DNA of 43,869 bases, taken from IMG/VR virus record IMGVR_UViG_3300031159_000005. One strand, given 5' to 3'. Under the pieces are notes generated by a model. It was not told the DNA's origin and ran no database searches. It saw nothing but the letters and a program-made list of their open reading frames with translations. Source of the stretch: a virus. The translations under genes were made by a program, and so were the position numbers. This document shows, one piece after another, positions 1,143 through 40,955 of this stretch. The stretch's first letter is position 1; each line of letters starts with the position of its first letter.

Positions 1143-1225
1143 CCCGCGGGCAGGCGGGCCATCTGCAAAACGTTCAATTACCGCCATTTTACCACGGACG
1201 GGGAGTGGCAACAAGGAGGGGTTCG

Positions 1226-3220: not shown

Positions 3221-3223
3221 TCC

Positions 3224-4330
3224 ATGAGCAACCAACAGCAAATCGCGAAAACGGAAGAACCGGCTTCCGTTCGCTTTACCAACCGCGTCATTGCGGAATT
3301 TAGCGGGGGAGTCGGAGAAATTGCCCTCTCCGACTTCCAACGGCGCCTCGCTCAGAACTACTTCATCGCGGCTGATGCAGCCCTGAAAAACGCTGAGGCG
3401 GCGCGCATGCGCAAGCCTGAGAACAGGCGCGATCCGGTACCGGTCACATGGGCAAACGTAAATCTGGAATCGGTTGCTCAAGCGGTAGTAGCAGCCGCCC
3501 GGATCGGACTTGACCCGATGCAGAAGAACCATGTCGCACTTGTCCCTTTCAAGAACAACCACACCGGGAAGTATGAACTCGCCTTCATCGAAGGGTACCG
3601 CGGCCTTGAGCTGAAAGCCGAGAAATATGCCCTTGATATGCCGACAGCTGTTGTCGTGGAACTAGTCTATTCAAATGACCATTTCCGCGTGATCAAGGGG
3701 GATTTCCGAAACCCGGGCGATGGGTACGAATTCGAGATCAAGAATCCGTTTGACCGCGGTGAACTGCAAGGCGGATTCTACTTCCACTACTACGAGAACA
3801 ATCCGCGCAAGAACAAGCTTGTCGTGATGCCGCTGAAGGAAATCCTCAAACGGAAACCGGCACACGCTTCCCCTGAGTTCTGGGGCGGCGAGAAAGACAT
3901 CTGGGAAAAGGACCCTCAGACGGGAAGAAACAAGAAGGTTGGAACCGAGCATGTTGAAGGCTGGTTCGAGAAGATGTGCTGGAAGACGGTCTTCCGGGCC
4001 GCCTACAACGACCTGACGATCGACAGCGAGAAGATCGATGCCGACTATCGCCGGCTGAAGCAGCTTGAACAGGATTACGAGGCGATGGCTGTGGCCGAGG
4101 AAATCGCTGCGAACGCCAACAAGACGCCGATTGACATCGACGACTACCAGGTGAGTGACGCCGTCGGTCCGGCACCTAATGATCCGGCATCTTATGACAC
4201 TGCATCGGAAGAACCGGCGCAAACGAGTTCTCAGCAAGCTAATTCCAATGCCGGCGCACCTTTCGACGACGGCCAGAGCGCCTTCGACTTCGGCGAACCT
4301 GTGGCGGCCGGCGATGGACCGGGATTCTGA
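3224..4330 (+). CDS. recT: RecT-family single-strand annealing recombinase
   Basis: IGLDPMQKNHVALVPFKN...ELAFIEGYRGLELKAEK and W..KMCWKTVFR align by eye with the conserved RecT core. Confidence 0.8.
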   Translation: MSNQQQIAKTEEPASVRFTNRVIAEFSGGVGEIALSDFQRRLAQNYFIAADAALKNAEAARMRKPENRRDPVPVTWANVNLESVAQAVVAAARIGLDPMQKNHVALVPFKNNHTGKYELAFIEGYRGLELKAEKYALDMPTAVVVELVYSNDHFRVIKGDFRNPGDGYEFEIKNPFDRGELQGGFYFHYYENNPRKNKLVVMPLKEILKRKPAHASPEFWGGEKDIWEKDPQTGRNKKVGTEHVEGWFEKMCWKTVFRAAYNDLTIDSEKIDADYRRLKQLEQDYEAMAVAEEIAANANKTPIDIDDYQVSDAVGPAPNDPASYDTASEEPAQTSSQQANSNAGAPFDDGQSAFDFGEPVAAGDGPGF

Positions 4331-5037
4331 TGATTCGGTTTCGTTCTATCGCCAGCTCGTCCGCCGGCAACTGCTACCACGTCACGGACGGCCGTACAGA
4401 GCTGTTGATCGAGGCCGGCATACGATTCGCAGACATCCGCAAGGCGCTGGATTTCCGCGTCTCGCGCCTTGCGGGCGTCCTGATCAGCCATGAGCACATG
4501 GACCACTCCCGGGCGGTCGCGGACCTCGCGAAGACCGGCGTCGACGTCTACGCCAGCTCAGGCACCATCGCCGCCCGGGGGCTCAGCGGGCATCGTGTGA
4601 AGACGATTGAGCCGAAACGGCAGTTCGAGATCGGGACGTGGACGATCATGCCGTTCGACGTGGAGCACGACGCCGAGCAGCCGCTCGGGTTCCTTATGGC
4701 CAATCGGGACGGCGAGAAGTTGGTATTTATCACGGACAGCTATTACTGCCGGTACACGTTCAGCGGATTAACGCACATCGCGGTCGAGTGCAATTACTCA
4801 CTCAGGATATTGGACGAGAATATCGCCGCTGGCCGTGTGCATCCGGCGATGCGGCCGCGGTTGCTCCGGTCGCATTTCAGCCTCGAAAACGTGCTGGACT
4901 TCCTGCGGGCGAACGACATGTCGAAGGTGCAGGAGATCCACCTGCTGCACCTTTCGGACAACAACAGCGACGAAGCGCTGTTCAAGCGAAAGGTACAGGA
5001 AGTGTCCGGGAAACCGGTCTACATTGCGGGGAGGTAA
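4330..5037 (+). CDS. Metallo-beta-lactamase-fold hydrolase (likely the recombination-associated nuclease)
   Basis: HEHMDHS (HxHxDH) motif. TGATG overlap with recT. Confidence 0.8.
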   Translation: MIRFRSIASSSAGNCYHVTDGRTELLIEAGIRFADIRKALDFRVSRLAGVLISHEHMDHSRAVADLAKTGVDVYASSGTIAARGLSGHRVKTIEPKRQFEIGTWTIMPFDVEHDAEQPLGFLMANRDGEKLVFITDSYYCRYTFSGLTHIAVECNYSLRILDENIAAGRVHPAMRPRLLRSHFSLENVLDFLRANDMSKVQEIHLLHLSDNNSDEALFKRKVQEVSGKPVYIAGR

Positions 5038-8153: not shown

Positions 8154-8941
8154 GGTCGAAGGTCCGGGCGGACATGATCAAGCGAGCGTTGAGCAAGCGG
8201 CATCGTGAAGATTTCTTTCTCACCGAGGTCAAGACCGGTCCAACCGGCTACGAGCATCATCGCATCGACGCGCTCGCCATCAAAAAATCCTGGGCGCATC
8301 CGTGCATCACGGCCTACGAGATAAAGGTCGATCGGAGTGATTTCGTGCGGGACGATAAATGGCCGGCGTACCTGCAGAATTGCCATCAATTCGCATTCGC
8401 CTGTCCGAAGGGATTGATCCAGCCCGACGAGCTGCCGGATGAAGTTGGACTGATCTATTACACTCCCGAGACGGAAGCGCTCGTGACGAAGCGAAAGCCG
8501 GCGTATCGGAATGTAAACGTCCCTTCGAATCTGCTTATGTACGTCATCATGACCAGGCTCGAGAATGACCGTCATCCGTTTTTCTCGACGCGGCGCGAGT
8601 TCATTGAGGCGTACCTGCAGGACAAGAAAGAGCGGAAAGAGCTCGGTCGGCATTTCGAAATCGAAGTGACAAAAGAAATTGGGGAATTGCGGCGTGAACT
8701 TGAGAGGATGCAGGGCAAGAAGGAGAGTCTGCAACTTCTCAACGAGGTCAGTGCAATTTTAAGAGATTACGGGATATGGCTCAGTACATGGAGTCAGGAC
8801 TGGAAAGACGAACTGCGAAAAGCGCTCGGTAATGGGCGTGATCCGCGAATTGAACGAAAGGTGAATTACCTCTTGAAACAGGCCGACGAGCTCAAAGAAA
8901 TGCTGGAAGAAAGGGATGCGGAACAATGTACGACCGCGTGA
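8150..8941 (+). CDS. MmcB-like PD-(D/E)xK nuclease-fold protein with C-terminal coiled coil
   Basis: E..(x)..IDALAI...AYEIKVDRSDFVRD...FAFACPKGL motif order. ATGA overlap with the upstream gene. Confidence 0.55.
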   Translation: MRSKVRADMIKRALSKRHREDFFLTEVKTGPTGYEHHRIDALAIKKSWAHPCITAYEIKVDRSDFVRDDKWPAYLQNCHQFAFACPKGLIQPDELPDEVGLIYYTPETEALVTKRKPAYRNVNVPSNLLMYVIMTRLENDRHPFFSTRREFIEAYLQDKKERKELGRHFEIEVTKEIGELRRELERMQGKKESLQLLNEVSAILRDYGIWLSTWSQDWKDELRKALGNGRDPRIERKVNYLLKQADELKEMLEERDAEQCTTA

Positions 8942-10593
8942 ACACAGCAGCAATTTTGTTCGGTGGTATCGGCGGTTTCTCCGCCGGACTGAAAAATTCG
9001 CTGGTCGAAGCCAACGGCAGGGTCTATCGTTGGCGCATCCTGTGCTCGATCGATTTCGATCCGGTCGCCTGCCGGAACCATGACATCATCACCGGTGAGC
9101 AGACGGCCGTGCAAATGGACCTGTTCAGCCGCGACCAGTACAGGAAATGGTTCGGCCACGAGCCGCCGGCGGAGTGGCAGGAGGTCACGCCGTGGGACGT
9201 GTGGCAGGCATTCGGCGAGCAGGTTCCTGACTACATCTTTCTTTCGCCCCCGTGCAAAGGCTTCAGCGGCCTGCTGCCGGAGCGATCGGCGCGATCGGAG
9301 AAGTACCAGGCGCTGAACCTGCTCACGATCCGTGGTCTGGAGCTATGCCTTGAAGCATGCCGGCTCTATGGTGATGGGGAGCTTCCAGCGTTCATCCAAT
9401 TCGAGAACGTGCCGCGGATCACTACCCGCGGTGCTGACATCCTCGCCCGGATCAAGCGGCTACTCGAACGGTACGGATATGCGGTAGACATGCGTTCTGA
9501 CCATAACCTCGGCGAGATCGGCGGGCTCGGGCAGAACCGGATGCGGTTTCTGCTGCTGGCCCGGAACCTGAAGCGCGTGCCGAACTGGTGCTATCTGCCG
9601 CCGAAGAAGAAACTTCGCACCATCGGTGATGTGATCGGGCCGCTACCCATGCCAGATGACCCCGCGGGCGGCCCGATGCATCGGTTGCCGCGGTTGCAAT
9701 GGAAGACATGGGTTCGTCTGGCGTTGATCCCGGCCGGTGGCGACTGGCGGGACCTCAACAATCTCGATTGGCAGAAGTACCGAATCGTGCATGAGGCGCG
9801 TGGCGGTGCATACGCGGTCAAAAAGTGGGACGAGCCGTCTCGGACCGTCACGGGAACGACGTGCCCGGGGCGGAGCAACGGCGTCGCGGTGGTATCAGAT
9901 CCGCGCGTCGGGCTCGACGGCAACGGCCACGCGGCAATCTATCGGGTGGTCTGGTACGATGAGCCAGCGCCGTGCGTGACTGGCGCGCATCGTCCGAACA
10001 ACGGGGCGATAGTGGTCGCTGACCCGCGCGTGAAGACCGATCTCATGCCGGACTGCTACGGCGTCCAACAGTGGGACGACCAGGCAAAGACGATCCGGGG
10101 AAATTCTCGTATCATGCAGTCTGCTTCCAGCATCGCCGACCCGCGCATTGGCTGCTCGCCCCGGTCTGGCACGATGGGTGTTCTGCGCTGGGACGAGCCA
10201 GCGAAGACCGTGATCGGCGCCGGGGACATCCACGCCGGCGCGGCGGCCGTCGCCGACCCGCGAATCCCGGAGGACAACGAGTCAGGAACATGGGTGATCA
10301 TTGCGGAGGACGGCACCTGGCACCGTCCGCTGACGACCTACGAGTTGGCGATGCTGCAGGGATTCCCGACACATCTTCCCGACGGCCGGCCGTTCCAGCT
10401 CGAAGGATGCAGCGATGCGAAGGCGCGGGAATACATCGGCAACGCCGTCCCGCCCGCGGCCGCCGAGGCGATGGGAAATGTCATCTTGATCGCCATTGCC
10501 CAGGCAGATGCCGGTATCACCTTCGAGATGTCGTGGAACGACGTGTGGGTGCTGCCGGAGACAGAGGAGCAGGAGCGAACGGTGGTGCATTGA
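8926..10593 (+). CDS. DNA (cytosine-5)-methyltransferase with a four-fold repeated TRD-like segment
   Basis: Motif I FGGIGGFS, IV SPPCKGFS, VI ENVP, VIII QNRMR, IX LTTYELAMLQGFP, X GNAVPP. Repeats W(D/Y)(E/D)(P/Q)..T(V/I).G...DPR(V/I) x4 between VIII and IX. Confidence 0.9.
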   Translation: MYDRVNTAAILFGGIGGFSAGLKNSLVEANGRVYRWRILCSIDFDPVACRNHDIITGEQTAVQMDLFSRDQYRKWFGHEPPAEWQEVTPWDVWQAFGEQVPDYIFLSPPCKGFSGLLPERSARSEKYQALNLLTIRGLELCLEACRLYGDGELPAFIQFENVPRITTRGADILARIKRLLERYGYAVDMRSDHNLGEIGGLGQNRMRFLLLARNLKRVPNWCYLPPKKKLRTIGDVIGPLPMPDDPAGGPMHRLPRLQWKTWVRLALIPAGGDWRDLNNLDWQKYRIVHEARGGAYAVKKWDEPSRTVTGTTCPGRSNGVAVVSDPRVGLDGNGHAAIYRVVWYDEPAPCVTGAHRPNNGAIVVADPRVKTDLMPDCYGVQQWDDQAKTIRGNSRIMQSASSIADPRIGCSPRSGTMGVLRWDEPAKTVIGAGDIHAGAAAVADPRIPEDNESGTWVIIAEDGTWHRPLTTYELAMLQGFPTHLPDGRPFQLEGCSDAKAREYIGNAVPPAAAEAMGNVILIAIAQADAGITFEMSWNDVWVLPETEEQERTVVH

Positions 10594-10594
10594 G

Positions 10595-10837
10595 ATGACG
10601 GCAAAACAACAACTCTACCAAATCGCCGTAGATGACAGCCAGCCGCTTGAAGAACGATACGCAGCCGCCCGGGAGCTGCAGCGCCGCACGCTCAACTCGC
10701 GCAAGATATACGATCTGATCCGTCTGTGGCCGTATCACACGCCGTCAGAGATTGCAGACATGCTGGACGTGACCGTGCCGACGGTGGTCGGAGTGGCGAG
10801 TCATTACGGACTTTGGCAGAGGAGGCTGTCGGGATGA
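10595..10837 (+). CDS. 80-aa hypothetical protein, possible HTH (SEIADMLDVTVPTVVGVASHYG)
   Basis: ATG 10595 directly follows the MTase stop. ATGA overlap with the next gene. The track ORF from 10496 is an extension. Confidence 0.55.
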   Translation: MTAKQQLYQIAVDDSQPLEERYAAARELQRRTLNSRKIYDLIRLWPYHTPSEIADMLDVTVPTVVGVASHYGLWQRRLSG

Positions 10838-13365
10838 GCGAAAGATACATCGAGTTTCTGAAGTCGAAAATCGTCGTCGCAAAAGAATCCGGATTTGAAG
10901 TCTATCCGGACATGATCAATCCGCGCCTGAAACCGCACCAGCGAGACGCGGTAATGTGGGCAGTCCGCGGCGGGCGCCGGGCGTTGTTCGAAGCGTTTGG
11001 GCTCGGAAAAACGGTCCAGCAGCTCGAATGGTGCCGCATCGTTTCGGAGCATATTGGCGGAAAGGCGCTAATCGTCCTGCCGCTGGGCGTCATGCAAGAG
11101 TTCAAACGGGACGCCGTTGAATTGCTCGGCATGGACGAGCCTGAATACGTTCGGACGATGGCTGAGGTACAGAATGCTAACGGTCAGATCCTGCTCACGA
11201 ACTATGAACGGGTGCGTGACGGGGACATCGACCCGACATACTTCACGGCCACGTCGCTCGACGAGGCGTCCGTGCTGCGGAGTTTCGGCAGTAAGACGTA
11301 CCAGACGTTCCTGGATAAGTTCCGCGGGGTGCCGTACAAGCTTGTCTGCACGGCGACGCCAAGTCCGAACCGGTACAAGGAACTGATCCATTACGCCGGA
11401 TACCTCGAGATCATGGACACCGGGCAGGCCCTCACTCGGTTCTTCCAGCGGGATAGTACGAAGGCGAATAACTTGACCATCTACCCGCACAAGGAAGACG
11501 AGTTCTGGCTATGGGTGTCGACCTGGGCGCTGTTCATTACGAAACCGAGCGATCTCGGATATTCCGATGAGGGCTATGATCTTCCACCGCTCGAAGTTCG
11601 GTATCACAAGCTTCCGGTCAATCACGAGGAGGCTGGAGCAGAGCGCGATGGCCAACTGCTCATCATCCGGGACGCCGCTGTCGGCCTGACGGAAGCAGCG
11701 CGTGAGAAGCGCGAATCGATCGCCGCGCGCGTCGCAAAGGCGGCTGAGATCGTCGCGGAGAGCCCGGACGACCATTTCATCATCTGGCATGACCTCGAGG
11801 CGGAGCGCCACGCGATCAAGGAGGAAATTCCGGATGTGGTGGACATTTACGGCAGCCTCGATCTGGAGATACGGGAGCAGCGCGTCTCGGACTTTTCGAA
11901 TGGCCTGATCAAGTATTTCGCGACGAAGAAGGAACTGTCGGGCAGCGGTTGCAACTTCCAGCGGCATTGCCACCGGGCTATCTTCGTCGGGATCGACTAC
12001 GAGTTCAACGATTTCATCCAGGCCATCCACCGGATATACCGTTTTTTGCAGACGAAGAAGGTCATCATCGACATCATCTATACGGAGAGTGAGGAGCAAA
12101 TCCTGCAAACGCTCCTCAAGAAGTGGGAGCAACATAATCACATGGTCCAGAAGATGACGGAGATCATCCGGAAATACGGCTTGTCCGGAGGAACTTCGGT
12201 CATCAACAAACTGGCCAGAACGATTGGGGTGGAACGTGTGAAGATCGAGACGGAGTGGTATACGGCCGTAAATAACGACTGCGTTCTGGAAACGGAGCAA
12301 ATGCCGGACAACAGCATCGACCTGATTCATACGTCGATTCCGTTCAGCAATCACTACGAATACACGCCGTCATACAACGACTTCGGCCACAACGAAGACA
12401 CGGCGCGATTTTTCGAGCAAATGGACTTTCTGACGCCGCAGCTCCTCCGGATCCTGAAGCCCGGCCGGATCGCAGCGATCCACGTCAAGGACCGTGTCCT
12501 CTATGGAAATGCGACCGGGACCGGAATGCCGACGATCGAGCCATTCCACGCGCTGTGCATCGATCATTACATGCGGCACGGGTTCCAGTATTGCGGCATG
12601 ATCACGGTCGTGACGGACGTCGTCCGCGAGAACAACCAGACATATCGGCTTGGCTGGACGGAACAGTGCAAGGACGGTACGAAGATGGGCGTCGGGTGTC
12701 CGGAGTACATCCTAATTTTCCGGAAGCTTCCGACAGACACGAGCCGCGCATACGCGGATGTTCCGGTGGTCAAGACGAAGGAGCAATACACGCGGGCGCA
12801 ATGGCAAATCGACGCGCATGCGTTCTGGCGGTCTAGCGGCGACCGGCTGCTGACGAAGGATGAGCTTGCGAGCTACCCGATCGACCAGCTGCAGGCGGTG
12901 TATCGCAAGTTTTCGCGCGGTACGGTCTACGACTACCGCGAGCATGTGGAGTTGGCGAAGAAGCTCGACCGCGACGGCCGTCTGCCGGCGACGTTCATGG
13001 TCGTGGCGCCGGGCAGCTGGGATGACAGCGTATGGGATGACATCGTGCGGATGCGGACGCTGAATACGTCGCAGAGCCAAAAGCGCCTGCAAATGCACGT
13101 CTGCCCGCTTCAGCTCGACATCGTCGAGCGGATCATCAATCGGTATTCCAATCCCGGTGAAGTCGTTCTGGATCCTTTCGGCGGGCTCATGACGGTTCCT
13201 TACGTCGCCGTGAAGATGGGGCGGAAGGGGTACGGGATCGAGCTCAATACGGACTACTTCCGGGACGGACTCGGATATCTAAAAGCCGCGGCGGAAGAAA
13301 TCACGATGCCGACGCTGTTTGATCTCGAGGATTTGCGGGTCCAGGAATCGGCCGCTGGAGCATAA
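10834..13365 (+). CDS. SNF2/DEAD-like helicase fused to a beta-class N6-adenine/N4-cytosine DNA methyltransferase (843 aa)
   Basis: N-terminal LKPHQRDAV..FGLGKTVQ (motif I), SLDEASVL (DEAx), TATPSPN. C-terminal IDLIHTSIPF (motif IV variant) followed by DPFGGLMTVP (motif I), i.e. PF01555-type order. Confidence 0.8.
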   Translation: MSERYIEFLKSKIVVAKESGFEVYPDMINPRLKPHQRDAVMWAVRGGRRALFEAFGLGKTVQQLEWCRIVSEHIGGKALIVLPLGVMQEFKRDAVELLGMDEPEYVRTMAEVQNANGQILLTNYERVRDGDIDPTYFTATSLDEASVLRSFGSKTYQTFLDKFRGVPYKLVCTATPSPNRYKELIHYAGYLEIMDTGQALTRFFQRDSTKANNLTIYPHKEDEFWLWVSTWALFITKPSDLGYSDEGYDLPPLEVRYHKLPVNHEEAGAERDGQLLIIRDAAVGLTEAAREKRESIAARVAKAAEIVAESPDDHFIIWHDLEAERHAIKEEIPDVVDIYGSLDLEIREQRVSDFSNGLIKYFATKKELSGSGCNFQRHCHRAIFVGIDYEFNDFIQAIHRIYRFLQTKKVIIDIIYTESEEQILQTLLKKWEQHNHMVQKMTEIIRKYGLSGGTSVINKLARTIGVERVKIETEWYTAVNNDCVLETEQMPDNSIDLIHTSIPFSNHYEYTPSYNDFGHNEDTARFFEQMDFLTPQLLRILKPGRIAAIHVKDRVLYGNATGTGMPTIEPFHALCIDHYMRHGFQYCGMITVVTDVVRENNQTYRLGWTEQCKDGTKMGVGCPEYILIFRKLPTDTSRAYADVPVVKTKEQYTRAQWQIDAHAFWRSSGDRLLTKDELASYPIDQLQAVYRKFSRGTVYDYREHVELAKKLDRDGRLPATFMVVAPGSWDDSVWDDIVRMRTLNTSQSQKRLQMHVCPLQLDIVERIINRYSNPGEVVLDPFGGLMTVPYVAVKMGRKGYGIELNTDYFRDGLGYLKAAAEEITMPTLFDLEDLRVQESAAGA

Positions 13366-16037: not shown

Positions 16038-16107
16038 GCGAGATATTGAAATTTTGTAGCACCTGCGGGTGCTTTTTCTTTTGCCATTTTTCAAGCGAGG
16101 TGGTGAT

Positions 16108-16716
16108 ATGCGGGAAGTCCAGCCGATCCGCGATCCCGAGTTGATCGTGGAAATCCAGAATTATTTGAAGGTTCGAAATTTCCGCAATTACCTGCTCTTC
16201 ACAATGGGGATCCACTGCGGGCTGCGCGTGTCGGACCTGTTGAGCCTCAAGGTAGGCGATGTCCGGGACCAGTTGCATATCAACTATGTCGCAAAGAAGA
16301 CCAGGAACCGCCGGAAGCGCCGGAAGGAGAGACGGTTTATCATTCATCCGTCGTACCGTGATGACCTGATGATCTACATTCAGGACATGGACGACGATGA
16401 ATATTTATTCGCATCGCGGCAAAAAAAATCAACCGGCGAAAAAGGGCTGCCGATCAGCCGGCAGATGGCCTGGCGAATGATTTCGGATGTCGCGCAGCGG
16501 TTCGGGCTCGAAGATATCGGTACACACTCGCTCCGGAAGACGTGGGGTTATCACATGATCATGAACGCCCCGCGTGAGCAGTGGGGCTATGTCATGGCGT
16601 TACTCATGGAAGCGTTCGGACACGAGTCGCAGGAGGTCACTTTGCGGTATTTGGGGCTCACTCAGGACATGCTCGACCGCATGATTCTGAGGTTGAGTTT
16701 TACAAAAACCGGGTGA
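16108..16716 (+). CDS. Short (202 aa) tyrosine recombinase-family protein, catalytic domain only
   Basis: GLRVSDL (Arg I), THSLRKTW (HxxR), FGHES..VTLRYL (His/Tyr) in canonical order. No N-terminal core-binding domain. Confidence 0.7.
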   Translation: MREVQPIRDPELIVEIQNYLKVRNFRNYLLFTMGIHCGLRVSDLLSLKVGDVRDQLHINYVAKKTRNRRKRRKERRFIIHPSYRDDLMIYIQDMDDDEYLFASRQKKSTGEKGLPISRQMAWRMISDVAQRFGLEDIGTHSLRKTWGYHMIMNAPREQWGYVMALLMEAFGHESQEVTLRYLGLTQDMLDRMILRLSFTKTG

Positions 16717-35358: not shown

Positions 35359-35669
35359 TGGAAAACCAACTCTTTACCTGGGAGGCGCTCTCCGCGATGG
35401 GGGGCGCTTCACTTTTGACCTTTTTCGTCGTGCAATACACAAAAAGCATCATCGACCGATTCGCGGCCCGCTGGCTGCCGACGGATCTCTATGCCGTGAT
35501 CGTGGCCAGCGCGGTACTCATCACCGCGCAGCTTGCGCTCGGCGCCGATCCCGCCGACTGGCGCGTGTATGTGCTCGCCATCGCGAACGGTTTCCTCGTG
35601 GCGGCGGCCGCCGGCCAGATGCAGCGGAAGGCGGTCGAGCCGCCGGGTAAGGAAAGTGACGGCCAATGA
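35358..35669 (+). CDS. Holin candidate (3 hydrophobic segments, charged C-terminus)
   Basis: GGASLLTFFVVQY, LYAVIVASAVLITAQLAL and VYVLAIANGFLVAAAAG. Immediately upstream of the endolysin with an ATGA overlap. Confidence 0.65.
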   Translation: MENQLFTWEALSAMGGASLLTFFVVQYTKSIIDRFAARWLPTDLYAVIVASAVLITAQLALGADPADWRVYVLAIANGFLVAAAAGQMQRKAVEPPGKESDGQ

Positions 35670-36304
35670 CGCGTGATCAGTTTTTCGCGACTTTGGCCCC
35701 GCATGCCATTCGCGCGCGGTTGGAAGGCTCACCGTTGTTTGTTTCCGTCCGGCTGGCACAGAACCTGCTCGAGACGGGAGGCGTTATCCATCCGTGGAAC
35801 AACCTTGGCGGTATCAAAGTCGGTAGCGGCAAGCCTAACGAGTGGTGGGACGGCAGCAGCGTCAAGAAAGGCACGTGGGAAGTGATTAATGGTCAGCGCG
35901 TTGATACGACGGCCAACTTCCGCGCATACAAGTCCGTTTACCACTTCTACAAGGACCAAGACCTATTGTTCCAGCTCTCCCGGTACGCGCGTGTACGAAC
36001 GTCGAAGACTCCCGAGGAGCAATGCGTCGCACTGCAACTTTGCGGCTACGCGACGGACCCGGCGTATTCGTCCAAGCTGGTCGGGATTATCAAAACGTAT
36101 GGACTCAAACAATATGATAAGGAGGCTGACAACCAAATGCAATTGAGCAACTACCAATGGCAACGGATTGAGATCGGTGTCAAGTCCCTGCTCGATCGCA
36201 AGATCATATCCGATACAGCGTGGCTCGAAAAGGCGCAGAAACGGACCCTCACGAGGGACGAGCTGGCATGGCTGACGTTCGAACTTGTCGCGAATCCTCG
36301 TTAA
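35666..36304 (+). CDS. Endolysin, N-acetylglucosaminidase (FlgJ/LytD-type glucosaminidase domain)
   Basis: RLAQNLLETGGV....NNLGGIKV....FRAYKSVYHFYKDQ......CGYATDPAYSSKL pattern. Confidence 0.75.
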   Translation: MTRDQFFATLAPHAIRARLEGSPLFVSVRLAQNLLETGGVIHPWNNLGGIKVGSGKPNEWWDGSSVKKGTWEVINGQRVDTTANFRAYKSVYHFYKDQDLLFQLSRYARVRTSKTPEEQCVALQLCGYATDPAYSSKLVGIIKTYGLKQYDKEADNQMQLSNYQWQRIEIGVKSLLDRKIISDTAWLEKAQKRTLTRDELAWLTFELVANPR

Positions 36305-36313
36305 TAACGAAAT

Positions 36314-36354
36314 CCCCGCTCGGCCATTGCGGCTGGGCGGGGAATTTTGTTTTT
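36314..36354 (+). terminator. Intrinsic terminator (12-bp stem CCCCGCTCGGCC/GGCTGGGCGGGG with G-U pairs) + TTTTGTTTTT
   Basis: Read directly. Confidence 0.8.
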
Positions 36355-36426
36355 GGCAAAAAAGGAAAAACATTATTACATCTCGAATTACCATGATAGA
36401 TGACGGTTTTTGCGGAGGATGACAAG

Positions 36427-38013
36427 ATGAGTAGGGTTTTGAGGTCTTTAAAAGAAAAGAATGAATACCCAATTGTCTTTATAGGTTCTGGAATGTCAAG
36501 AAGATATTTGAGTGGTTTCCCGGGATGGGAGGATCTGCTTAAGGAATTCTGGGATGTTTTAAAGCAGGGCAGAGATTTTTATGGGTTTCTAAATACACTT
36601 AAGCGGCAATTGAAAGATGCTGACGCCGATTCAGATTACGACCTTGATTACCTTACGAATATTGTTGCAGGGTCCGAGATTGAGAATAGATTCAATACTT
36701 TGTTTTTTAACGAACAATTGGATATTCCCGGATTTGACCAGGAGAAAGCATATAGAACAGGTATATCTCCATTTAAAGCGGCTATTGCTAACCGATTCGC
36801 AACCTATGAAATTAAACCTGAGATGGCTGAAGAATATAAAGCCTTTAAAGCTTTTCTAAATAAAACACAAATTATTATTACTACGAATTATGATACATTA
36901 ATCGAGGATTCCATCAATTCTGAAAGTCCCGATGGTATCAAAAAATACATAGGACAAAAAGGATTTTTTGAACCAACTCTAGGATGGGCTGAATTATATA
37001 AAATTCACGGGTGCGTAACTGATCCCCAATCAATAGTGATTACGAAAACAGACTATGATCGCTTTTCAAAAAACTCCATTTTAATTAGTGCAAAGATCAT
37101 TTCATTATTAATCAACTCTCCTATTATCTTTATGGGTTATTCTCTAACAGATGGAAATGTCAGAAAAATTCTACGGGATTTTTCCTCCTCTTTAACCAAA
37201 GAAGAAATTAAACAAATGGCTTCAAAAATTATAATTATCGAAAGAGAGCCTGACTTATCTGAAATAAAAGAGCAAACATATTTTGATAAGGATCTTGGTT
37301 GTGAATATACGGTCCTTAAAACAGACAACTATAAATTAATATGTGAGATTATGACTGAAATCGATCAAGGGATTCATCCATCCGAGGTTCGAAAGTATCA
37401 GCATGTTATTAAGAAGCTTATTGTTAATCGCGGAAAGAGAGGTAGTTTAAACACTTTATTATTGTCACCCGAAGAATTAGAAGATATTGAAAAAAGAATT
37501 GGTGATGAAAAAATAGTTGTAGCATTGGGGGATACAACCTATATATTTCAAATGCCCGATTTATTGTCGTATGTTTATGATTATTTTCTTGGCGGTAGAG
37601 TCATTCATACAGATATTGCACTTAGGTTTGTTGCTAGTCAGGCCAGTACTTCTCGAATTCCATTTCTTAAACATGTTGAGGGCGTTGACATAGATAAAAC
37701 AAATCTACACCCAGCGGAAAAAGAAAAATTAAAACAAAGAATAGCAAGATTTACTACTCCTGAATATTGTATACGTTCAATATCTGACACCTATAAAATA
37801 AGAGCCAACTCATTATCTGAAATTATTGCTTATAATCACAAACCCTATAAGGAGTTTGAAATCGTTTCGTATAACAGTTTGAGAATCGATCGTGATGAAC
37901 TCGGGGAGTACATTAAAGATAAAATAGAAAAATATAAAGCCGATGGAATCAGGAGTTTGCCCTCCCCTTTTAGAAGATTATTGATGATTTATGACTTGTT
38001 GATTAACAAATAA
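36427..38013 (+). CDS. Stand-alone SIR2-like (SIR2_2 / ThsA-DSR-type) protein, 528 aa, with an uncharacterised C-terminal ~270 aa; candidate NAD+-depleting defence effector
   Basis: VFIGSGMS..FPGW, IITTNYD (N154), YKIHG (H194) and IIFMGYSLTD in canonical order. AT-rich gene. ATG 36427 follows GGAGGA (the track ORF opens at 36400). Confidence 0.75.
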   Translation: MSRVLRSLKEKNEYPIVFIGSGMSRRYLSGFPGWEDLLKEFWDVLKQGRDFYGFLNTLKRQLKDADADSDYDLDYLTNIVAGSEIENRFNTLFFNEQLDIPGFDQEKAYRTGISPFKAAIANRFATYEIKPEMAEEYKAFKAFLNKTQIIITTNYDTLIEDSINSESPDGIKKYIGQKGFFEPTLGWAELYKIHGCVTDPQSIVITKTDYDRFSKNSILISAKIISLLINSPIIFMGYSLTDGNVRKILRDFSSSLTKEEIKQMASKIIIIEREPDLSEIKEQTYFDKDLGCEYTVLKTDNYKLICEIMTEIDQGIHPSEVRKYQHVIKKLIVNRGKRGSLNTLLLSPEELEDIEKRIGDEKIVVALGDTTYIFQMPDLLSYVYDYFLGGRVIHTDIALRFVASQASTSRIPFLKHVEGVDIDKTNLHPAEKEKLKQRIARFTTPEYCIRSISDTYKIRANSLSEIIAYNHKPYKEFEIVSYNSLRIDRDELGEYIKDKIEKYKADGIRSLPSPFRRLLMIYDLLINK

Positions 38014-38059
38014 AATAAGGCTGACGCCAAACCCACTGGGAGTTGCCATCAGCCTTATT
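38014..38059 (+). terminator. Perfect 11-bp stem AATAAGGCTGA/TCAGCCTTATT with a 24-nt structured loop, directly after the SIR2-like stop
   Basis: Read directly. The downstream sequence is only moderately U-rich. Confidence 0.5.
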
Positions 38060-38112
38060 GTTGCCTTACTTATTATGTCTTCATTGTATGTGAGTATGCG
38101 TGTTTTGTCAAG

Positions 38113-38140
38113 ATCCCGCCAGTTATATGGGCGGGGATTT
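38113..38140 (+). terminator. Hairpin ATCCCGCC-9 nt-GGCGGG(G)AT followed by TTTCCCTTCCCTTT
   Basis: Read directly. Confidence 0.45.
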
Positions 38141-38148
38141 CCCTTCCC

Positions 38149-38177
38149 TTTACACCAAACAAACGTTCTCATATAAT
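38149..38177 (+). promoter_or_regulatory. Near-consensus sigma-A promoter TTTACA-17-TATAAT for the WYL-like/YolD-like pair
   Basis: Read directly (-35 at 38149-38154, -10 at 38172-38177). Confidence 0.65.
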
Positions 38178-38210
38178 CGAATCACACGTACACATTCGGG
38201 AGGCGCTCCC

Positions 38211-38411
38211 ATGTCTATCGCCAAATACATCGGCCGTCGCGTCGAGATCATCTACCAGTCCGCTGACGGCCGGCTCACCCAGCGCACAATCCGCGTGCTC
38301 GACGTCCGGGATGGCATCGTTCGCGCGTTCTGCACCACTTCCGGAGCGCCGCGGACGTTTCGGGTGGACAGCATATTGGCGTGCATGCCGACGAGGAGAC
38401 AGTCCGCATGA
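38211..38411 (+). CDS. 66-aa protein with a WYL-domain-core-like signature (Sm/SH3-like barrel)
   Basis: RVEIIYQSADGRLTQRTIRVLDVRDGIVRAFCTTSGAPRTFRVDSIL fits the v.i.Y....g....R.i.P..l...g..yl.A.C.....R.Fr.drI pattern. ATG 38211 follows GGGAGG. Confidence 0.55.
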   Translation: MSIAKYIGRRVEIIYQSADGRLTQRTIRVLDVRDGIVRAFCTTSGAPRTFRVDSILACMPTRRQSA

Positions 38412-38758
38412 GGACAAACAAACTGACGCCCGGATCAAATCTACTCTGGGAATCGAGCCGGATGATCATTCCAGAACACAAAGAGGCGCTTGTAAGGTAT
38501 AGGGAGGAATCGAAGATGGCGAAGCCAAAAAGACCCGTTCGCGACGAATTCGAACTGGACGAACTCGCCGGCCGGCTTTATGACGCCATGGAGGAAGGCT
38601 ACGAACTCGTGTTGACTATCTGGGGGCGCAACGAACCTGTCCGCGGAAGGATCACGAAGCTGGACGCAGACACGAAGCGAGTGCATGTGCAGCGGTTTGG
38701 TGATACGAGGAAGATACCGTTTTTGGACATTATGCGAGCGGAGCGTCCTGATTATTGA
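38408..38758 (+). CDS. YolD-like protein (UmuD-analogue family)
   Basis: LLWESSRMIIPEHKEAL..., then DE.ELDEL...L..AMEEGYELVLTIWG....VRGRITKLDADTKRVHV......IPFLDI matches the YolD family pattern. ATGA overlap with the upstream ORF. Confidence 0.7.
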   Translation: MRTNKLTPGSNLLWESSRMIIPEHKEALVRYREESKMAKPKRPVRDEFELDELAGRLYDAMEEGYELVLTIWGRNEPVRGRITKLDADTKRVHVQRFGDTRKIPFLDIMRAERPDY

Positions 38759-38806: not shown

Positions 38807-38864
38807 AAATGAGTGTCAAAAAATATTATACGGTTCAGCGTATAGTACAAAATGACACTCATTT
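38807..38864. repeat. 58-bp imperfect dyad (outer arms AAATGAGTGTCA / TGACACTCATTT perfect; inner TATTATACGG / GCGTATAGTA partial) centred near 38835/38836; candidate attP
   Basis: Read directly. Abuts and overlaps the int stop codon. Confidence 0.45.
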
Positions 38865-40331
38865 GTACCGTATATCTACCCACGCAGGGAAAAATCGGTT
38901 TTTCACGCCTTTTACAATGGTCTCGTTCGTGTGCAGGGTGATCTCGTCGAAGATTGTCAGGAGAAGCTCCCTTTTTTCCTGGTTCCCTATCTTATCCCAG
39001 ACGTCTATGATCTCCAGCAACTTGGCCGGGTAAACGAACTCCTCTTTCTTCTGGTTTTCCAGCTCCTGCAGCTCCCGCAAGAGCTTCTCCTCCTGTTCTT
39101 TTTCCTCATCCAGATGCCTTCGCAGCTCTATTTCAGAGATCAGCTCGTTCACATACATATACTGCCAGCGTTTTCTGCGCTCCCTGATCCGGTTCAGGTC
39201 GCTATTCACCCGTCGGATCTTCCGATTCAGCTCCGTCTGATCTTGCTTCAGTTCAATTTTCGATTTGTCCAGACGAATCGATTCGATGTGCTTCATGATT
39301 AGATGCTCAACGTGCTTCTGCCGGAACATCGGCATATCACAGGTTTTGCTGTCCCGGCGCCTGCTACACATGTAATACGGGTTTCTGACGATTTCGCCGT
39401 TTCGCAGGCTTCGTTTCGTCGTAAGGCGGCCGAACATCGTGCTTCCACAACGGCCGCAGCGTAGCAGACCGCTGAATAAATAGTCCAGCTTCCTCGAATG
39501 ATTTCCCTCGCTTCGCATCCGCATCAGCCGCAAGTGCTCCTCGTACTCCTCGACAGTCCAGATTGCCTCTTGATCGCCCGGAACGTCGATTACATCCACC
39601 CGCAGTTCCCGTTTGCGCTGCGGGTATTTTCCATTTTTCATCTTTGTCCCGAACCGTATGATTCCCGCATAAAACGGATTCTCCAGCGTCAGTGCGACGG
39701 TGTTTCGGGTCCATTCGTAGCCGCGGCGCAATTTCCCTTCCTGGTTCAGCCGTTCAGCGATTTTAAGGAATGAAAGGTTTTCCTTCATATACAGCTCGCG
39801 AACGCGCCGAATGGTCTCTGCTTCCTCTGGGATCAGGTTGCCATCTCGGTCATACCCATAGGGATATTTCCCACCGGGCTTTTTCCCTTCTCGCACTTTC
39901 TGTTCCATACCCATCCGCACGCGCTCGGCAATCGTTTCGCGCTCCCATTGGGCAAAAATGCCGAGAATCCCCAGCATGGCCCGCCCCATCGTCGTAGTTG
40001 TATCGAATTGCTCCTGAGATGACCGAAAGCCCACATCATGGCGTGCAAACTCGTCCAGAAGGTGGTATAAATCCTTGACCGACCGCGTGAGCCTGTCCAG
40101 TTTGAACACGAGCACGACGTCGATTTCCTCGCCCCGCACCTTTTCCAAAAGTTCCTGCATGGCCGGCCGATTCAGGTCCTTCGCCGAATACCCGTCATCG
40201 ACCAATATGCTCGTCACGTCCCAATCCTGGGATTCGGCGTAGGCGAGAAGTTTCCTTTTTTGCGCGTCGATAGAAAAACCTTCGCGGGCCTGCTCGTCCG
40301 TTGAAACTCGTATATAAAGTGCTGCACGCAT
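38859..40331 (-). CDS. int: Large serine recombinase (phage integrase)
   Basis: N-terminal AALYIRVSTDEQ..GFSIDAQ resolvase catalytic domain, recombinase domain, zinc ribbon LLRCGRCGSTM...YYMC and C-terminal coiled coil. RBS AGGAGG. Confidence 0.9.
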   Translation of the reverse strand: MRAALYIRVSTDEQAREGFSIDAQKRKLLAYAESQDWDVTSILVDDGYSAKDLNRPAMQELLEKVRGEEIDVVLVFKLDRLTRSVKDLYHLLDEFARHDVGFRSSQEQFDTTTTMGRAMLGILGIFAQWERETIAERVRMGMEQKVREGKKPGGKYPYGYDRDGNLIPEEAETIRRVRELYMKENLSFLKIAERLNQEGKLRRGYEWTRNTVALTLENPFYAGIIRFGTKMKNGKYPQRKRELRVDVIDVPGDQEAIWTVEEYEEHLRLMRMRSEGNHSRKLDYLFSGLLRCGRCGSTMFGRLTTKRSLRNGEIVRNPYYMCSRRRDSKTCDMPMFRQKHVEHLIMKHIESIRLDKSKIELKQDQTELNRKIRRVNSDLNRIRERRKRWQYMYVNELISEIELRRHLDEEKEQEEKLLRELQELENQKKEEFVYPAKLLEIIDVWDKIGNQEKRELLLTIFDEITLHTNETIVKGVKNRFFPAWVDIRYK

Positions 40332-40403: not shown

Positions 40404-40955
40404 TCACTTAATTTTGAAGGAATTGAACATTCTATTTGATTCGTTAAATACATCGTCAAATTCACTTGCAGTGAACGATGTATATGATAATGTGTAAGTC
40501 TTATTACCAGAAGGCACTATATATGCAGCATAGAAAACTTTCTGGCCTGTCTGCGAAATTTTATACTCACCATACAAAATTCCTGCTCTAAGGCCGTTAT
40601 AATCTCGATCCTCATACTTTATTTTTTTAAAATCACTCATCCCCCATGTTTCGCCGAAAAGTATAAGCTGATCAACCGTCAAATTGGCAGTATATTCAGC
40701 GGAAGGCGCCAAAACCGCATGCTCTTGTATGTCCACATTTACATTATTTTTAGTGTTCTTAGAAAAGAACGCCGCTTTAATTGTTGAAGTATCCATATTA
40801 AGTGAGGATAAATCCTGTTTTACCCAATCAGCAGGATACTCAAATGAAATTTCTTCGTTTTCGAATTTCTTATAACCATCACTTGAAATTTTCTCTTGTG
40901 AACAACCGATAACAAATAGGAACAAGGATAATGAAATGTAAAAAATTCGCTTCAA
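40404..40955 (-). CDS. AT-rich lipoprotein (183 aa), possibly a DcrB/PsbP-like fold
   Basis: Signal peptide MKRIFYISLSLFLFVIGC with lipobox VIGC. TTG start after GGTGAT. Confidence 0.7.
   Translation of the reverse strand: MKRIFYISLSLFLFVIGCSQEKISSDGYKKFENEEISFEYPADWVKQDLSSLNMDTSTIKAAFFSKNTKNNVNVDIQEHAVLAPSAEYTANLTVDQLILFGETWGMSDFKKIKYEDRDYNGLRAGILYGEYKISQTGQKVFYAAYIVPSGNKTYTLSYTSFTASEFDDVFNESNRMFNSFKIK

What the first reader, a model, noticed from the sequence alone, without database searches (positions are those of the whole stretch)
36314..38140. Terminator-insulated AT-rich moron encoding a compact stand-alone SIR2-like protein with an unassignable C-terminal half: candidate new single-gene anti-phage system
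Seen in the sequence:
- Right after the endolysin terminator (36314-36354), base composition drops sharply relative to the GC-rich backbone for exactly one ORF (ATG 36427, RBS GGAGGA, 528 codons).
- That ORF is followed by two stem-loops (38014-38059 and 38113-38140). It is therefore an insulated unit sitting between the lysis cassette and attP/int, the classical moron and defence slot of prophages.
- The N-terminal ~260 aa carry, in order, VFIGSGMS..FPGW, IITTNYD (Asn154, nt 36886-36888), YKIHG (His194, nt 37006-37008) and IIFMGYSLTD.

Established knowledge: this motif series defines the SIR2_2 (ThsA/DSR-type) NADase fold, used as the effector in Thoeris, DSR1/DSR2, SIR2-HerA, SIR2-pAgo and Avs5-type systems.

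Inference:
- None of the partner genes of those systems (TIR ThsB, HerA, pAgo, STAND NTPase) occurs anywhere in this phage.
- The protein is far shorter than DSR proteins.
- The C-terminal ~270 aa show no motif I can assign, including no obvious SLOG-type glycine-rich pocket.
- It therefore looks like a compact SIR2 sensor-effector carried by a prophage to exclude other phages.
Basis: partly seen in the sequence, partly recalled or inferred. Interest (0 to 1): 0.85.

Follow-up and report, generated by a model that had tools for sequence, protein, structure and literature searches.

The report
Prophage SIR2 gene with antisense RNA
A temperate phage carries a foreign, AT-rich gene for a SIR2-type (NAD-destroying) candidate immunity protein that is already catalogued but untested, and I find that it travels with a previously unnoticed small antisense RNA gene that may act as its safety catch.

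Summary
A 1.79-kb AT-rich cassette (36359-38148, GC 0.35 against 0.57 for the backbone) sits after the endolysin terminator and encodes one 528-aa protein. Its N-terminal half is a ThsA/DSR2/KomC-type SIR2 domain with invariant GxG, Asn154 and His194. The C-terminal half is not SLOG: residues 379-528 form a confident all-helical domain with no match in PDB or Pfam. No partner protein is conserved.

The protein is not a new candidate. It matches PADLOC's unvalidated single-gene candidate PDC-S25 over its full length (E = 1e-237) and PHROG 2695. Homologues lie inside BREX operons, beside type I R-M genes and in the same lysin-integrase slot of Lactococcus phage BK5-T.

The new result is that the "terminator" at 38014-38059 is a conserved RNA hairpin on the opposite strand. 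It has a near-consensus promoter (38111-38083) and a U-tract. It shows strong covariation and a strand-specific G·U signature. A covariance model finds it only at SIR2 3' ends, in 33 loci (25 in the loci fetched via the protein, 8 from the motif scan).

My best reading is an NAD+-depleting abortive-infection module gated by a convergent antitoxin-like sRNA. RNA expression, NADase activity and protection are untested.

The parts
36313..36352 (+). Intrinsic terminator of the endolysin gene. It belongs to the phage backbone and marks the left edge of the cassette.
   Evidence: 13-bp stem plus T-tail; dG -30.1 kcal/mol, z = -4.5. It is conserved in related phages up to 36342-36358.
36359..38148 (.). 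AT-rich cargo cassette (moron) inserted between the lysis module and the WYL/YolD/integrase genes.
   Evidence: GC 0.35 against 0.57 for the backbone. Homology to related phages L055-L062 breaks at about 36358 and resumes at 38149. The same slot holds other cargo in relatives, including a DUF3800/PDC-M04A gene in L062.
36414..36419 (+). Ribosome-binding site GGAGGA, 7 nt upstream of the ATG.
   Evidence: Read directly from the sequence.
36427..38013 (+). Gene for a 528-aa SIR2-family protein (PADLOC PDC-S25, PHROG 2695).
   Evidence: PDC-S25 E = 1.2e-237 over 4-527/528. phrog_2695 E = 7e-139. More than 1,100 homologues, with the top 120 mostly 520-550 aa.
36427..37365 (+). SIR2 (NADase-type) catalytic domain, about aa 1-313. 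It carries the GSG loop (G20, G22), Asn154, His194 and a variable helical insertion at aa 51-146.
   Evidence: Pfam SIR2_2 E = 4e-26. Foldseek hits to DSR2, BcThsA and KomC at E = 1e-9 to 1e-7, with TM up to 0.73 normalised to the target. N154 and H194 align with BcThsA N112 and H152. Both residues are invariant in 53 sequences.
37366..37560 (+). Conserved linker, aa 314-378 (QG.P.E.R.YQ..I..LI..RG..G.L...L.SP … VVALGD..YIF.MP). It is as conserved as the catalytic core but modelled with low confidence.
   Evidence: Mean pairwise identity 0.59 over aa 306-378, the region as it was measured, against 0.60 for the SIR2 core. pLDDT below 50.
37561..38010 (+). C-terminal all-helical domain, aa 379-528. 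It is the most variable part and has no assignable fold.
   Evidence: pLDDT about 90. Best Foldseek hit in PDB has E = 0.5 and TM <= 0.22. No PDB sequence hit below E = 0.39. Mean pairwise identity 0.37. The aa 306-528 profile, which contains this domain, matches only 111 of 1.84 billion cluster representatives, nearly all with this SIR2 architecture or fragments of it.
38083..38111 (-). Near-consensus sigma-70-type promoter (TTGACA-17-TACAAT) pointing towards the 3' end of the SIR2 gene.
   Evidence: 11/12 match. A score of >=11/12 occurs in 20 of 31 element-bearing loci, against 0.5% of shuffles and 0 of 31 on the opposite strand. The position is fixed, 8-22 nt upstream of the hairpin, in 29 of 31 loci.
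38005..38076 (-). Predicted antisense small RNA of about 70 nt: a short leader, the conserved hairpin and a U-tract. It overlaps the SIR2 stop codon and 3' UTR. The ends are inferred.
   Evidence: Promoter geometry. On the - strand it folds at -31.3 kcal/mol, z = -5.4, and is followed by UUAUUUUAUUUGUU.
38012..38062 (-). Conserved structured hairpin of the antisense RNA.
   Evidence: Covariance model R1 hit, 52.9 bits, E = 2e-11. 11 of 17 pairs show compensatory changes. 95.6% of cells are paired against 80.5% in shuffles, 0 of 500 shuffles reaching that value. 61 G·U cells on the - strand against 3 on the + strand, and the - strand fold is more stable in 23 of 23 loci.
38113..38140 (+). GC-rich inverted repeat (CCCGCC…GGCGGG) at the right edge of the cassette. 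It may be a distal terminator, but support is weak.
   Evidence: Folds no better than shuffles, z = -0.35. Not conserved downstream of homologues.

Best explanation
The cassette is a mobile immunity module carried by a temperate phage for the benefit of its lysogen. It has two genes, not one.

(1) The 528-aa protein is a ThsA/DSR2-type SIR2 enzyme. Once active, it most likely hydrolyses NAD+ and aborts infection by a superinfecting phage.

(2) A small RNA of about 70 nt is transcribed from a strong promoter on the opposite strand. It is fully complementary to the 3' end of the SIR2 mRNA.

I propose that the RNA keeps the enzyme in check in healthy cells, in one of two ways. It could pair with the mRNA 3' end and trigger its decay, as in type I toxin-antitoxin loci. 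Or it could bind the protein through its conserved internal loops, as in type III loci. When an incoming phage shuts off or degrades host and prophage transcripts, the short-lived RNA would be lost and the enzyme unleashed. The variable C-terminal helical domain and the variable SIR2 insertion may add a second, protein-level specificity for phage components.

Shown here: the SIR2 fold and catalytic residues, the absence of a protein partner, the defence-island and moron contexts, and the conservation, covariation, strandedness and gene-specificity of the RNA element.

Inferred: NADase activity, abortive infection, expression of the RNA, and its role as an inhibitor or sensor.
For: SIR2 effector:
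- Pfam SIR2_2 E = 4e-26.
- Structural matches to DSR2, ThsA and KomC.
- N154 and H194 align with BcThsA N112 and H152 and are invariant.

Defence role:
- Full-length match to PADLOC PDC-S25.
- A 70%-identical homologue lies between PglX and PglZ of a type 1 BREX operon.
- Homologues lie next to HsdR/HsdM/HsdS genes in L035, L039 and L042.
- The homologue occupies the same lysin-to-integrase slot in phage BK5-T and lies between the repressor and the integrase in phage IPP23.
- The slot holds other defence-candidate cargo in the sister phage L062.
- The gene has lower GC than its flanks in 18 of 18 hosts checked.

No protein partner.

Antisense RNA:
- Conserved promoter: >=11/12 in 20 of 31 loci against 0.5% of shuffles.
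- Hairpin covariation: 73 double-change cells against 22 expected, 0 of 500 shuffles reaching the observed value.
- Strand test: 61 against 3 G·U cells, mean dG -23.6 against -13.6 kcal/mol, - strand more stable in 23 of 23 loci.
- U-tract on the - strand.
- The covariance model hits only SIR2 3' ends across 1.03 Mb, including two loci not used to build it.
- An unbiased motif scan recovered 8 genuine elements, all at SIR2 3' ends or remnants.
- In the window's clade the hairpin is entirely non-coding yet still conserved.
- The sense promoter is weak and not conserved, while the antisense promoter is strong.
Against: - There are no expression data for the RNA and no activity or protection data for any family member. 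PDC systems are described as unvalidated, and I found no experimental paper.
- About 20 of 45 SIR2 loci lack the element: clostridia, lactobacilli, Tumebacillus, and phages BK5-T and IPP23. The protein can therefore exist without it.
- A hairpin followed by a U-tract is also what a plain terminator looks like.
- Known type I toxins are small membrane peptides, not 528-aa enzymes.
- The conserved aa 314-378 segment is unexplained.
Confidence: 0.5

Rival explanations
1. A DSR2-like one-protein sensor-effector. The C-terminal helical domain directly binds a phage protein and releases the SIR2 NADase. The downstream hairpin and promoter only tune or terminate transcription and are not part of the sensing logic.
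For: - Single-protein SIR2 systems exist: DSR2 structures with the phage tail tube protein are among the best structural matches.
- The C-terminal domain and the SIR2 insertion are the most variable regions (0.37 and 0.40 identity), as expected for a surface under pressure from phages.
- About 20 of 45 loci lack the RNA element.
Against: - The C-terminal domain has no detectable similarity to the DSR2 sensor or to anything else.
- This reading does not explain why a near-consensus antisense promoter, conserved loop nucleotides and a strand-specific G·U pattern are kept across hosts down to 43% protein identity.
- It also does not explain why the RNA element persists beside decayed genes.
Confidence: 0.3
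2. A prophage addiction or stabilisation module (toxin plus RNA antitoxin), or another phage-benefiting enzyme, rather than an anti-phage system.
For: - The layout (convergent sRNA, strong antisense promoter, weak sense promoter) is that of the type I toxin-antitoxin loci of Bacillus prophages (established knowledge: bsrG/SR4, txpA/RatA).
- Decayed toxin genes retain the RNA.
Against: - The gene is embedded inside BREX operons and sits beside type I R-M genes on chromosomes.
- The alternative cargo in the same phage slot is another defence candidate.
- SIR2_2 proteins characterised so far are immune effectors (PDB entries).
- Addiction and abortive infection are not mutually exclusive.
Confidence: 0.1
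3. An orphan ThsA-like effector that waits for a signalling nucleotide made by a TIR protein encoded elsewhere in the host genome.
For: The best sequence and structure relatives of the SIR2 domain include ThsA.
Against: - There is no SLOG/STALD or Macro domain: the ThsA HMM aligns only to aa 150-316, and the C-terminal half has no PDB match although ThsA structures are in that library.
- No TIR gene was found among the window ORFs scanned individually, none appeared in the top-25 lists of the bundled scans, and no neighbour is conserved in 42 loci.
Confidence: 0.04
4. The hairpin is a DNA-level element, such as an attC-like recombination site or cassette boundary, rather than an RNA.
For: - It lies at the 3' end of a mobile cassette gene.
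- In most members it contains GTTAGGC, which fits the integron core GTTRRRY.
- It has bulged bases.
Against: - GTTAGGC is the reverse complement of the gene's own GCC-TAA-C stop region, and the window's clade has GTTTGGC instead.
- G·U wobble pairs number 61 on one strand against 3 on the other, and a promoter and U-tract are conserved at fixed distances.
- Flanking recombinases differ or are absent.
- The cassette boundary is at 38148, not at the hairpin.
Confidence: 0.03

Closest known systems
PADLOC PDC-S25 (phage defence candidate, single gene) / PHROG 2695
   Same: It is the same protein family: a full-length HMM match (E = 1.2e-237 over 4-527/528) and phrog_2695 at E = 7e-139.
   Different: The catalogue entry is an unvalidated, protein-only prediction. 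It has no domain analysis of the C-terminal half and no RNA component. The antisense sRNA described here is not part of it.
Thoeris ThsA (SIR2-SLOG NADase)
   Same: The SIR2 fold, the GxG loop and the catalytic Asn and His (N154/H194 align with N112/H152 of BcThsA).
   Different: There is no SLOG ligand-binding domain and no ThsB partner.
DSR2 / DSR1 (defence-associated sirtuins)
   Same: A stand-alone SIR2 protein with a helical C-terminal region. DSR2 is the best structural match for the N-terminal domain.
   Different: It is half the size (528 aa against about 1,000-1,200). The C-terminal domain shows no significant similarity. A cis-encoded antisense RNA is associated with it.
Type I toxin-antitoxin loci of Bacillus prophages (bsrG/SR4, txpA/RatA, yonT/SR6; established knowledge)
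   Same: A convergent small RNA with a strong promoter that overlaps the 3' end of a potentially toxic gene, a weak promoter for the toxic gene, and a prophage or mobile-element location.
   Different: The partner is a 528-aa enzyme, not a membrane peptide of under 60 aa. There is no Rfam match to known antitoxin RNAs. The conserved internal-loop nucleotides hint at more than simple antisense pairing.
Type III toxin-antitoxin / Abi systems (ToxIN, AbiQ-antiQ; established knowledge)
   Same: A structured RNA as the candidate inhibitor of an abortive-infection protein, and a possible trigger by transcription shutoff.
   Different: There is no tandem-repeat RNA array upstream of the gene. The protein is not an endoribonuclease. 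The RNA is antisense and lies 3' of the gene.
Lactococcal AbiH (sirtuin-like single-gene Abi; PMC13064643)
   Same: A single SIR2-like protein conferring abortive infection in Firmicutes.
   Different: The PADLOC scan returned no Abi family at E <= 1, so the protein was not recognised as AbiH. This protein is also longer, with a different C-terminal half.

Membership tests
PADLOC PDC-S25 | Full-length match to the family HMM | tested here: met
   PDLC04967, E = 1.2e-237, aa 5-528 aligned to 4-527/528.
PADLOC PDC-S25 | Single protein-coding gene without a conserved protein partner | tested here: met
   The best neighbour cluster occurs in 5 of 42 loci at variable positions. The cassette holds one gene.
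SIR2_2 / defence sirtuin NADases | Rossmann GxG loop plus catalytic Asn and His in a SIR2 fold | tested here: met
   Pfam PF13289 E = 4e-26. Foldseek hits to DSR2, ThsA and KomC. N154 and H194 align with ThsA N112 and H152 and are invariant.
SIR2_2 / defence sirtuin NADases | NAD+ hydrolysis on activation | not testable with these tools
   Needs biochemistry.
Thoeris (ThsA) | C-terminal SLOG/STALD (or Macro) signal-binding domain | tested here: not met
   The ThsA HMM covers only aa 150-316. The C-terminal model has no PDB match (best E = 0.5) although ThsA structures are in the library. The sequence profile has no hit. The region is predicted to be all-helical.
Thoeris (ThsA) | Adjacent ThsB (TIR) gene | tested here: not met
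   No TIR among the window ORFs scanned individually or in the lists shown. No conserved neighbour in 42 loci.
DSR1 / DSR2 | Protein of about 1,000-1,200 aa with a large C-terminal sensor domain homologous to DSR | tested here: not met
   528 aa. The Dsr1 HMM aligns only to aa 17-309. DSR2 matches the C-terminal half only at E >= 1.
SIR2-HerA, SIR2-pAgo, Avs5 | HerA, pAgo or STAND NTPase partner or fusion | tested here: not met
   None in the window. No neighbour gene is conserved across the 42 loci.
Lamassu (LmuA-SIR2 + LmuB) | SMC-like LmuB encoded in the same operon | tested here: not met
   The only LmuB-like ATPase (1058-3220, E = 3.7e-12) lies about 33 kb upstream of the SIR2 gene, next to RecT. 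No neighbour gene is conserved across the 42 homologue loci.
Type I toxin-antitoxin | Cis-encoded antisense RNA gene overlapping the toxin mRNA | tested here: met
   In silico only: conserved promoter, covarying strand-specific hairpin, U-tract. Expression was not tested.
Type I toxin-antitoxin | Small hydrophobic toxin peptide | tested here: not met
   The partner is a 528-aa soluble enzyme.
Type III toxin-antitoxin (ToxIN-like) | Tandem-repeat antitoxin RNA upstream of an endoribonuclease toxin | tested here: not met
   No repeat array in 36250-38250. The protein has a SIR2 fold.
Any Rfam RNA family | Covariance-model match | tested here: not met
   No match at E <= 1 in 36250-38300 on either strand.

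The most novel reading that the evidence does not exclude
This family is the first example of an NAD+-depleting immune effector gated by its own cis-encoded small RNA. It would be a hybrid of a sirtuin defence protein and an RNA-antitoxin module, in which loss of a short-lived antisense or decoy RNA is the infection signal (for example through phage-induced transcription shutoff or RNA decay). The conserved aa 314-378 segment or the helical C-terminal domain would be the RNA-responsive part.
Probability: 0.35. Interest if true: 0.8.

Novelty: new variant of a known kind. Interest (0 to 1): 0.62.

Why it matters
SIR2 NADases are among the commonest effectors of bacterial immunity, but each characterised system needs a separate sensor: ThsB, HerA, pAgo, a STAND module or a very large sensor domain. 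How compact stand-alone SIR2 proteins are kept silent and then triggered is an open question.

A conserved antisense RNA attached to the gene gives a concrete, cheap-to-test answer. It would link sirtuin immunity to RNA-antitoxin logic. It also shows that single-gene candidates in defence catalogues can hide non-coding partners that protein-centred pipelines cannot see.

In practice, cloning the ORF alone, as catalogues suggest, could be toxic or misleading. The native 3' region should be included.

Tried and rejected
- NCBIfam gave no hit.
- A megablast of the cassette against phage genomes found nothing.
- BFVD viral structures gave no significant match.
- Neither the C-terminal-only model nor the C-terminal profile matched anything in PDB.
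- I searched 1.84 billion cluster representatives with the profile of the C-terminal half (aa 306-528), looking for other domain architectures. Nearly all of the 111 hits have the same architecture or are fragments of it; intermediate-length hits are co-linear truncations.
- Literature searches for PDC-S25, for stand-alone SIR2 defence in lactic acid bacteria and prophages, and for SIR2 plus antisense RNA found no experimental work.
- SLOG was rejected: the region is all-helical and has no match.
- Lamassu was rejected: the LmuB-like ATPase sits in the distant RecT module.
- An attC-like site was rejected: the GTTAGGC motif coincides with the gene's stop-codon region, and the evidence points to an RNA-strand structure.
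- A micro-ORF inside the hairpin (MAITxSG*) was rejected. The AUG is missing in L009, L025, L029 and L030, the stop is missing in the window's clade, and the start is buried in the stem.
- I found no conserved strong sense promoter.
- There is no tandem-repeat RNA and no Rfam family match.
- Limitation: the two bundled scans of all 140 window ORFs listed only the top 25 families each. Absence of ThsB rests on those lists plus individual scans of 30 non-structural ORFs.
Full report
**1. The observation**

The window is a temperate phage genome. It has recombination, replication and methylase genes, terminase, portal, capsid, a myovirus-type tail, a holin and a glucosaminidase endolysin. A lysogeny module follows: a serine integrase, an ImmA-like peptidase, a CI-like repressor and a Cro-like protein.

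After the endolysin gene (35666-36304) there is a strong intrinsic terminator at 36313-36343 plus a T-tail (dG -30.1 kcal/mol, z = -4.5). GC then falls from about 0.57 to 0.34 for one ORF. That ORF has its ATG at 36427, preceded by GGAGGA at 36414-36419, and runs 528 codons to the stop at 38011-38013.

Fourteen related phages share the endolysin at 65-89% amino-acid identity. Their DNA homology with the window ends at 36342-36358 and resumes at 38149. The foreign cassette is therefore 36359-38148. None of those relatives carries the SIR2 gene. The slot holds other cargo instead, including another AT-rich gene in L062 (DUF3800, PADLOC PDC-M04A). The "insulated moron" observation is confirmed, and comparative evidence strengthens it. 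One correction: a small WYL gene and a YolD-like gene of backbone composition lie between the cassette and the integrase.

**2. The protein**

The N-terminal ~310 residues form a SIR2_2 domain (Pfam E = 4e-26). An AlphaFold model built on 53 homologues (pLDDT 79) matches DSR2, BcThsA, EcThsA, SeThsA and KomC at E = 1e-9 to 1e-7, through this domain only. Profile alignment puts Asn154 and His194 on ThsA N112 and H152. G20, G22, N154 and H194 are invariant.

The C-terminal half has two parts:
- Residues 314-378 are as conserved as the catalytic core (0.59 against 0.60 mean pairwise identity, measured over aa 306-378) but are modelled with low confidence.
- Residues 379-528 form a confidently modelled all-helical domain (pLDDT about 90) and are the most variable region (0.37).

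A model of the C-terminal half alone has no significant structural neighbour in PDB (best E = 0.5, TM <= 0.22), even though ThsA and DSR2 are in that library. Its sequence profile has no PDB hit. So it is not SLOG. The same C-terminal profile (aa 306-528) matched only 111 of 1.84 billion cluster representatives. Nearly all have the same architecture or are fragments of it.

**3. It is not a new candidate**

The protein matches PADLOC-DB's PDC-S25 over its full length (E = 1.2e-237) and PHROG 2695, of unknown function (E = 7e-139). PDC entries are computational candidates that others explicitly call unvalidated. I found only one passing mention of PDC-S25 in the literature and no experimental work on the family.

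**4. Context in other genomes**

More than 1,100 homologues exist, mostly 520-550 aa and from Firmicutes. In 42 genomic loci no neighbouring protein is conserved. The contexts are typical of defence genes:
- Between PglX and PglZ inside a type 1 BREX operon in three Paenibacillus species.
- Next to HsdR/HsdM/HsdS genes in L035, L039 and L042.
- Among transposases in Geobacillus.
- At prophage edges next to an integrase in Cohnella.
- In temperate phages of Streptococcus, Lactococcus and Bacillus.

In Lactococcus phage BK5-T the homologue (ORF30) sits in the same position as here. The annotated order is lysin, terminator, promoter, ORF30, two terminators, then integrase on the other strand. The gene has lower GC than its flanks in all 18 hosts checked. 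The window encodes no TIR, HerA, pAgo or STAND protein among the ORFs examined. A weakly LmuB-like ATPase at 1058-3220 belongs to the RecT recombination module about 33 kb upstream of the SIR2 gene.

**5. The unexpected part: an antisense small-RNA gene**

The hairpin right after the stop codon (38014-38059) is conserved at the DNA level downstream of homologues in unrelated contexts. A survey showed a common layout on the strand opposite to the gene in loci whose proteins are only 43-77% identical to this one. Each locus reads in this order:
1. TTGACA-17-TATAAT.
2. A short leader.
3. A hairpin with a variable outer stem and conserved inner sequences (UGGCAAUCAC-loop-GUGGUUAGGCG).
4. A U-tract.

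Tests:
- RNAalifold predicts 17 pairs, 11 of them with compensatory double changes.
- 95.6% of cells are paired against 80.5 ± 1.1% in shuffles (0 of 500 reach it). There are 73 double-change cells against 22 expected. Sliding the partners gives 31-51% pairing.
- The structure belongs to the minus strand. It has 61 G·U cells there against 3 on the mRNA strand. Mean dG is -23.6 against -13.6 kcal/mol, and the minus strand is more stable in 23 of 23 loci.
- The promoter scores >=11/12 in 20 of 31 loci, against 0.5% of shuffles and 0 of 31 on the other strand. It lies 8-22 nt upstream of the hairpin in 29 of 31 loci.
- A covariance model of the hairpin alone gives one hit of 50-70 bits per locus in 25 loci, always at the SIR2 3' end on the minus strand. 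Two of those loci were not used in training. Nothing else in 1.03 Mb scores significantly.
- An unbiased motif scan of the metagenome and viral collections gave 17 matches. The model separates them into 8 genuine elements (60-72 bits) and 9 chance partial matches. All 8 genuine elements adjoin a SIR2 3' end: three full-length genes, one cut off by the locus edge, and four decayed remnants.

In most Bacillales members the stop codon lies in the hairpin's internal loop. In the window's clade the stop is upstream, so the hairpin is purely non-coding and still conserved. That rules out coding constraint as the cause. Rfam has no matching family. In contrast, the sense gene has no conserved strong promoter.

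The element is absent from about 20 of 45 loci: clostridia, lactobacilli, Tumebacillus, BK5-T and IPP23.

In the window:
- The promoter is at 38111-38083.
- The predicted RNA runs from about 38076 to about 38005.
- The model hit is at 38012-38062, 52.9 bits.

**6. Mechanism**

Shown: a catalytically intact SIR2 fold of the immune NADase type, no protein partner, a mobile and defence-island lifestyle, and a gene-specific, strand-specific, covarying antisense RNA element with its own promoter and terminator.

Inferred: the protein depletes NAD+ to abort infection, by analogy with ThsA, DSR2 and KomC. The RNA restrains it in uninfected cells. It could do this by pairing with the mRNA 3' end and provoking decay, as in the type I loci bsrG/SR4 and txpA/RatA (established knowledge). 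Or it could bind the protein, as in type III loci; the conserved loop nucleotides favour some sequence-specific recognition. Loss of the RNA during infection would arm the enzyme. The variable C-terminal domain may add a protein-level trigger.

I give this composite reading 0.5. A pure DSR2-like protein sensor with an incidental terminator and promoter gets 0.3. An addiction or other non-defence role gets 0.1. An orphan ThsA gets 0.04. A DNA-level recombination site gets 0.03.

**7. Comparison and novelty**

The protein is a member of PDC-S25. It works like ThsA and DSR2 at the catalytic domain but fails the defining features of Thoeris (no SLOG, no ThsB), of DSR (size, sensor domain), of SIR2-HerA, SIR2-pAgo and Avs5, and of Lamassu. 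The RNA layout resembles a type I toxin-antitoxin locus but fails the small-peptide-toxin criterion. It is also not a ToxI-type repeat array.

Taken as a protein alone, the finding is already catalogued and ordinary. Together with the RNA it is a new variant of a known kind. Interest 0.62.

Noticed in passing
window 38211-38758 (+): A 66-aa WYL-domain protein (Pfam E = 2.5e-5; PADLOC WYL) and a YolD-like protein (E = 8.6e-13) form a backbone gene pair with their own promoter-like site (38149-38177, 11/12). They lie between the cassette and the integrase and are conserved in related phages L059, L061 and L062. A YolD gene also neighbours the B. subtilis SIR2 homologue (L051).
   Followed up: partly
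window 40404-40955 (-): A second AT-rich gene (GC 0.34) between the integrase and the ImmA-like peptidase. It encodes a 183-aa predicted lipoprotein (MKRIFYISLSLFLFVIGCSQ…; weak LpqN/PsbP-like hits). It may be another moron, for example a superinfection-exclusion lipoprotein.
   Followed up: partly
L062 6808-7644 (-): A sister phage carries a different AT-rich cargo (GC 0.32) in the same slot: a 278-aa DUF3800 protein matching PADLOC candidate PDC-M04A (E = 4.6e-18). Other relatives carry unrelated small genes, a GNAT or a NucA/NucB-Excalibur nuclease. The slot is a cargo-exchange hotspot.
   Followed up: partly
L073 2782-3099, L083 1343-1659, L075 1120-1337, L080 453-504: Decayed SIR2 genes that still carry a full-scoring antisense RNA hairpin. 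They include an internal deletion fusing NYDTFIEDSYNS to the last ~70 aa, C-terminal stubs, and one case with only the last ~8 codons. This resembles orphan antitoxins left behind after toxin loss.
   Followed up: partly
window 37366-37560 (aa 314-378): This segment holds 9 invariant residues in the C-terminal half (Q314, G315, P318, G336, G339, L341, L345, A366, G368). Yet AlphaFold models it at pLDDT below 50 both in the full-length protein and in isolation. It may be an oligomerisation, RNA-binding or conformational-switch segment.
   Followed up: no
proteins P0204, P0212, P0217, P0219: Four proteins of 200-250 aa match the C-terminal module weakly (E = 6e-10 to 2e-5) without any BLAST-detectable SIR2 part. 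They could be stand-alone versions of the module or fragments.
   Followed up: no
window 1058-5037 (+): A recombination module: a 720-aa SMC/AAA_23 ATPase (weakly LmuB-like, E = 3.7e-12), RecT and a metallo-beta-lactamase-fold protein. The LmuB resemblance could cause a false Lamassu call by automated tools.
   Followed up: partly
window 8926-13365 (+): Two large DNA methyltransferases in the early region: a 555-aa C5-cytosine methylase and an 879-aa SNF2-related/N6_N4 methylase fusion. They are probably anti-restriction self-methylation functions.
   Followed up: no
window 16069-16716 (+): A short (215-aa) tyrosine-recombinase-family protein just upstream of the small terminase gene, in addition to the serine integrase at 38859-40331.
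   Followed up: no
L069 (Streptococcus phage IPP23) 4004-5595: The SIR2 homologue is annotated as two CDSs (a likely frameshift or pseudogene). It lies between the cI-like repressor and the integrase rather than after the lysin.
   Followed up: no
many loci, 5-12 nt downstream of the antisense -10 box: A second TATAAT-like box (for example gagcATATAATg) recurs in the sRNA leader of Geobacillus, Sporosarcina and Bacillus members. It could be an alternative -10 element or a conserved 5' leader motif.
   Followed up: no
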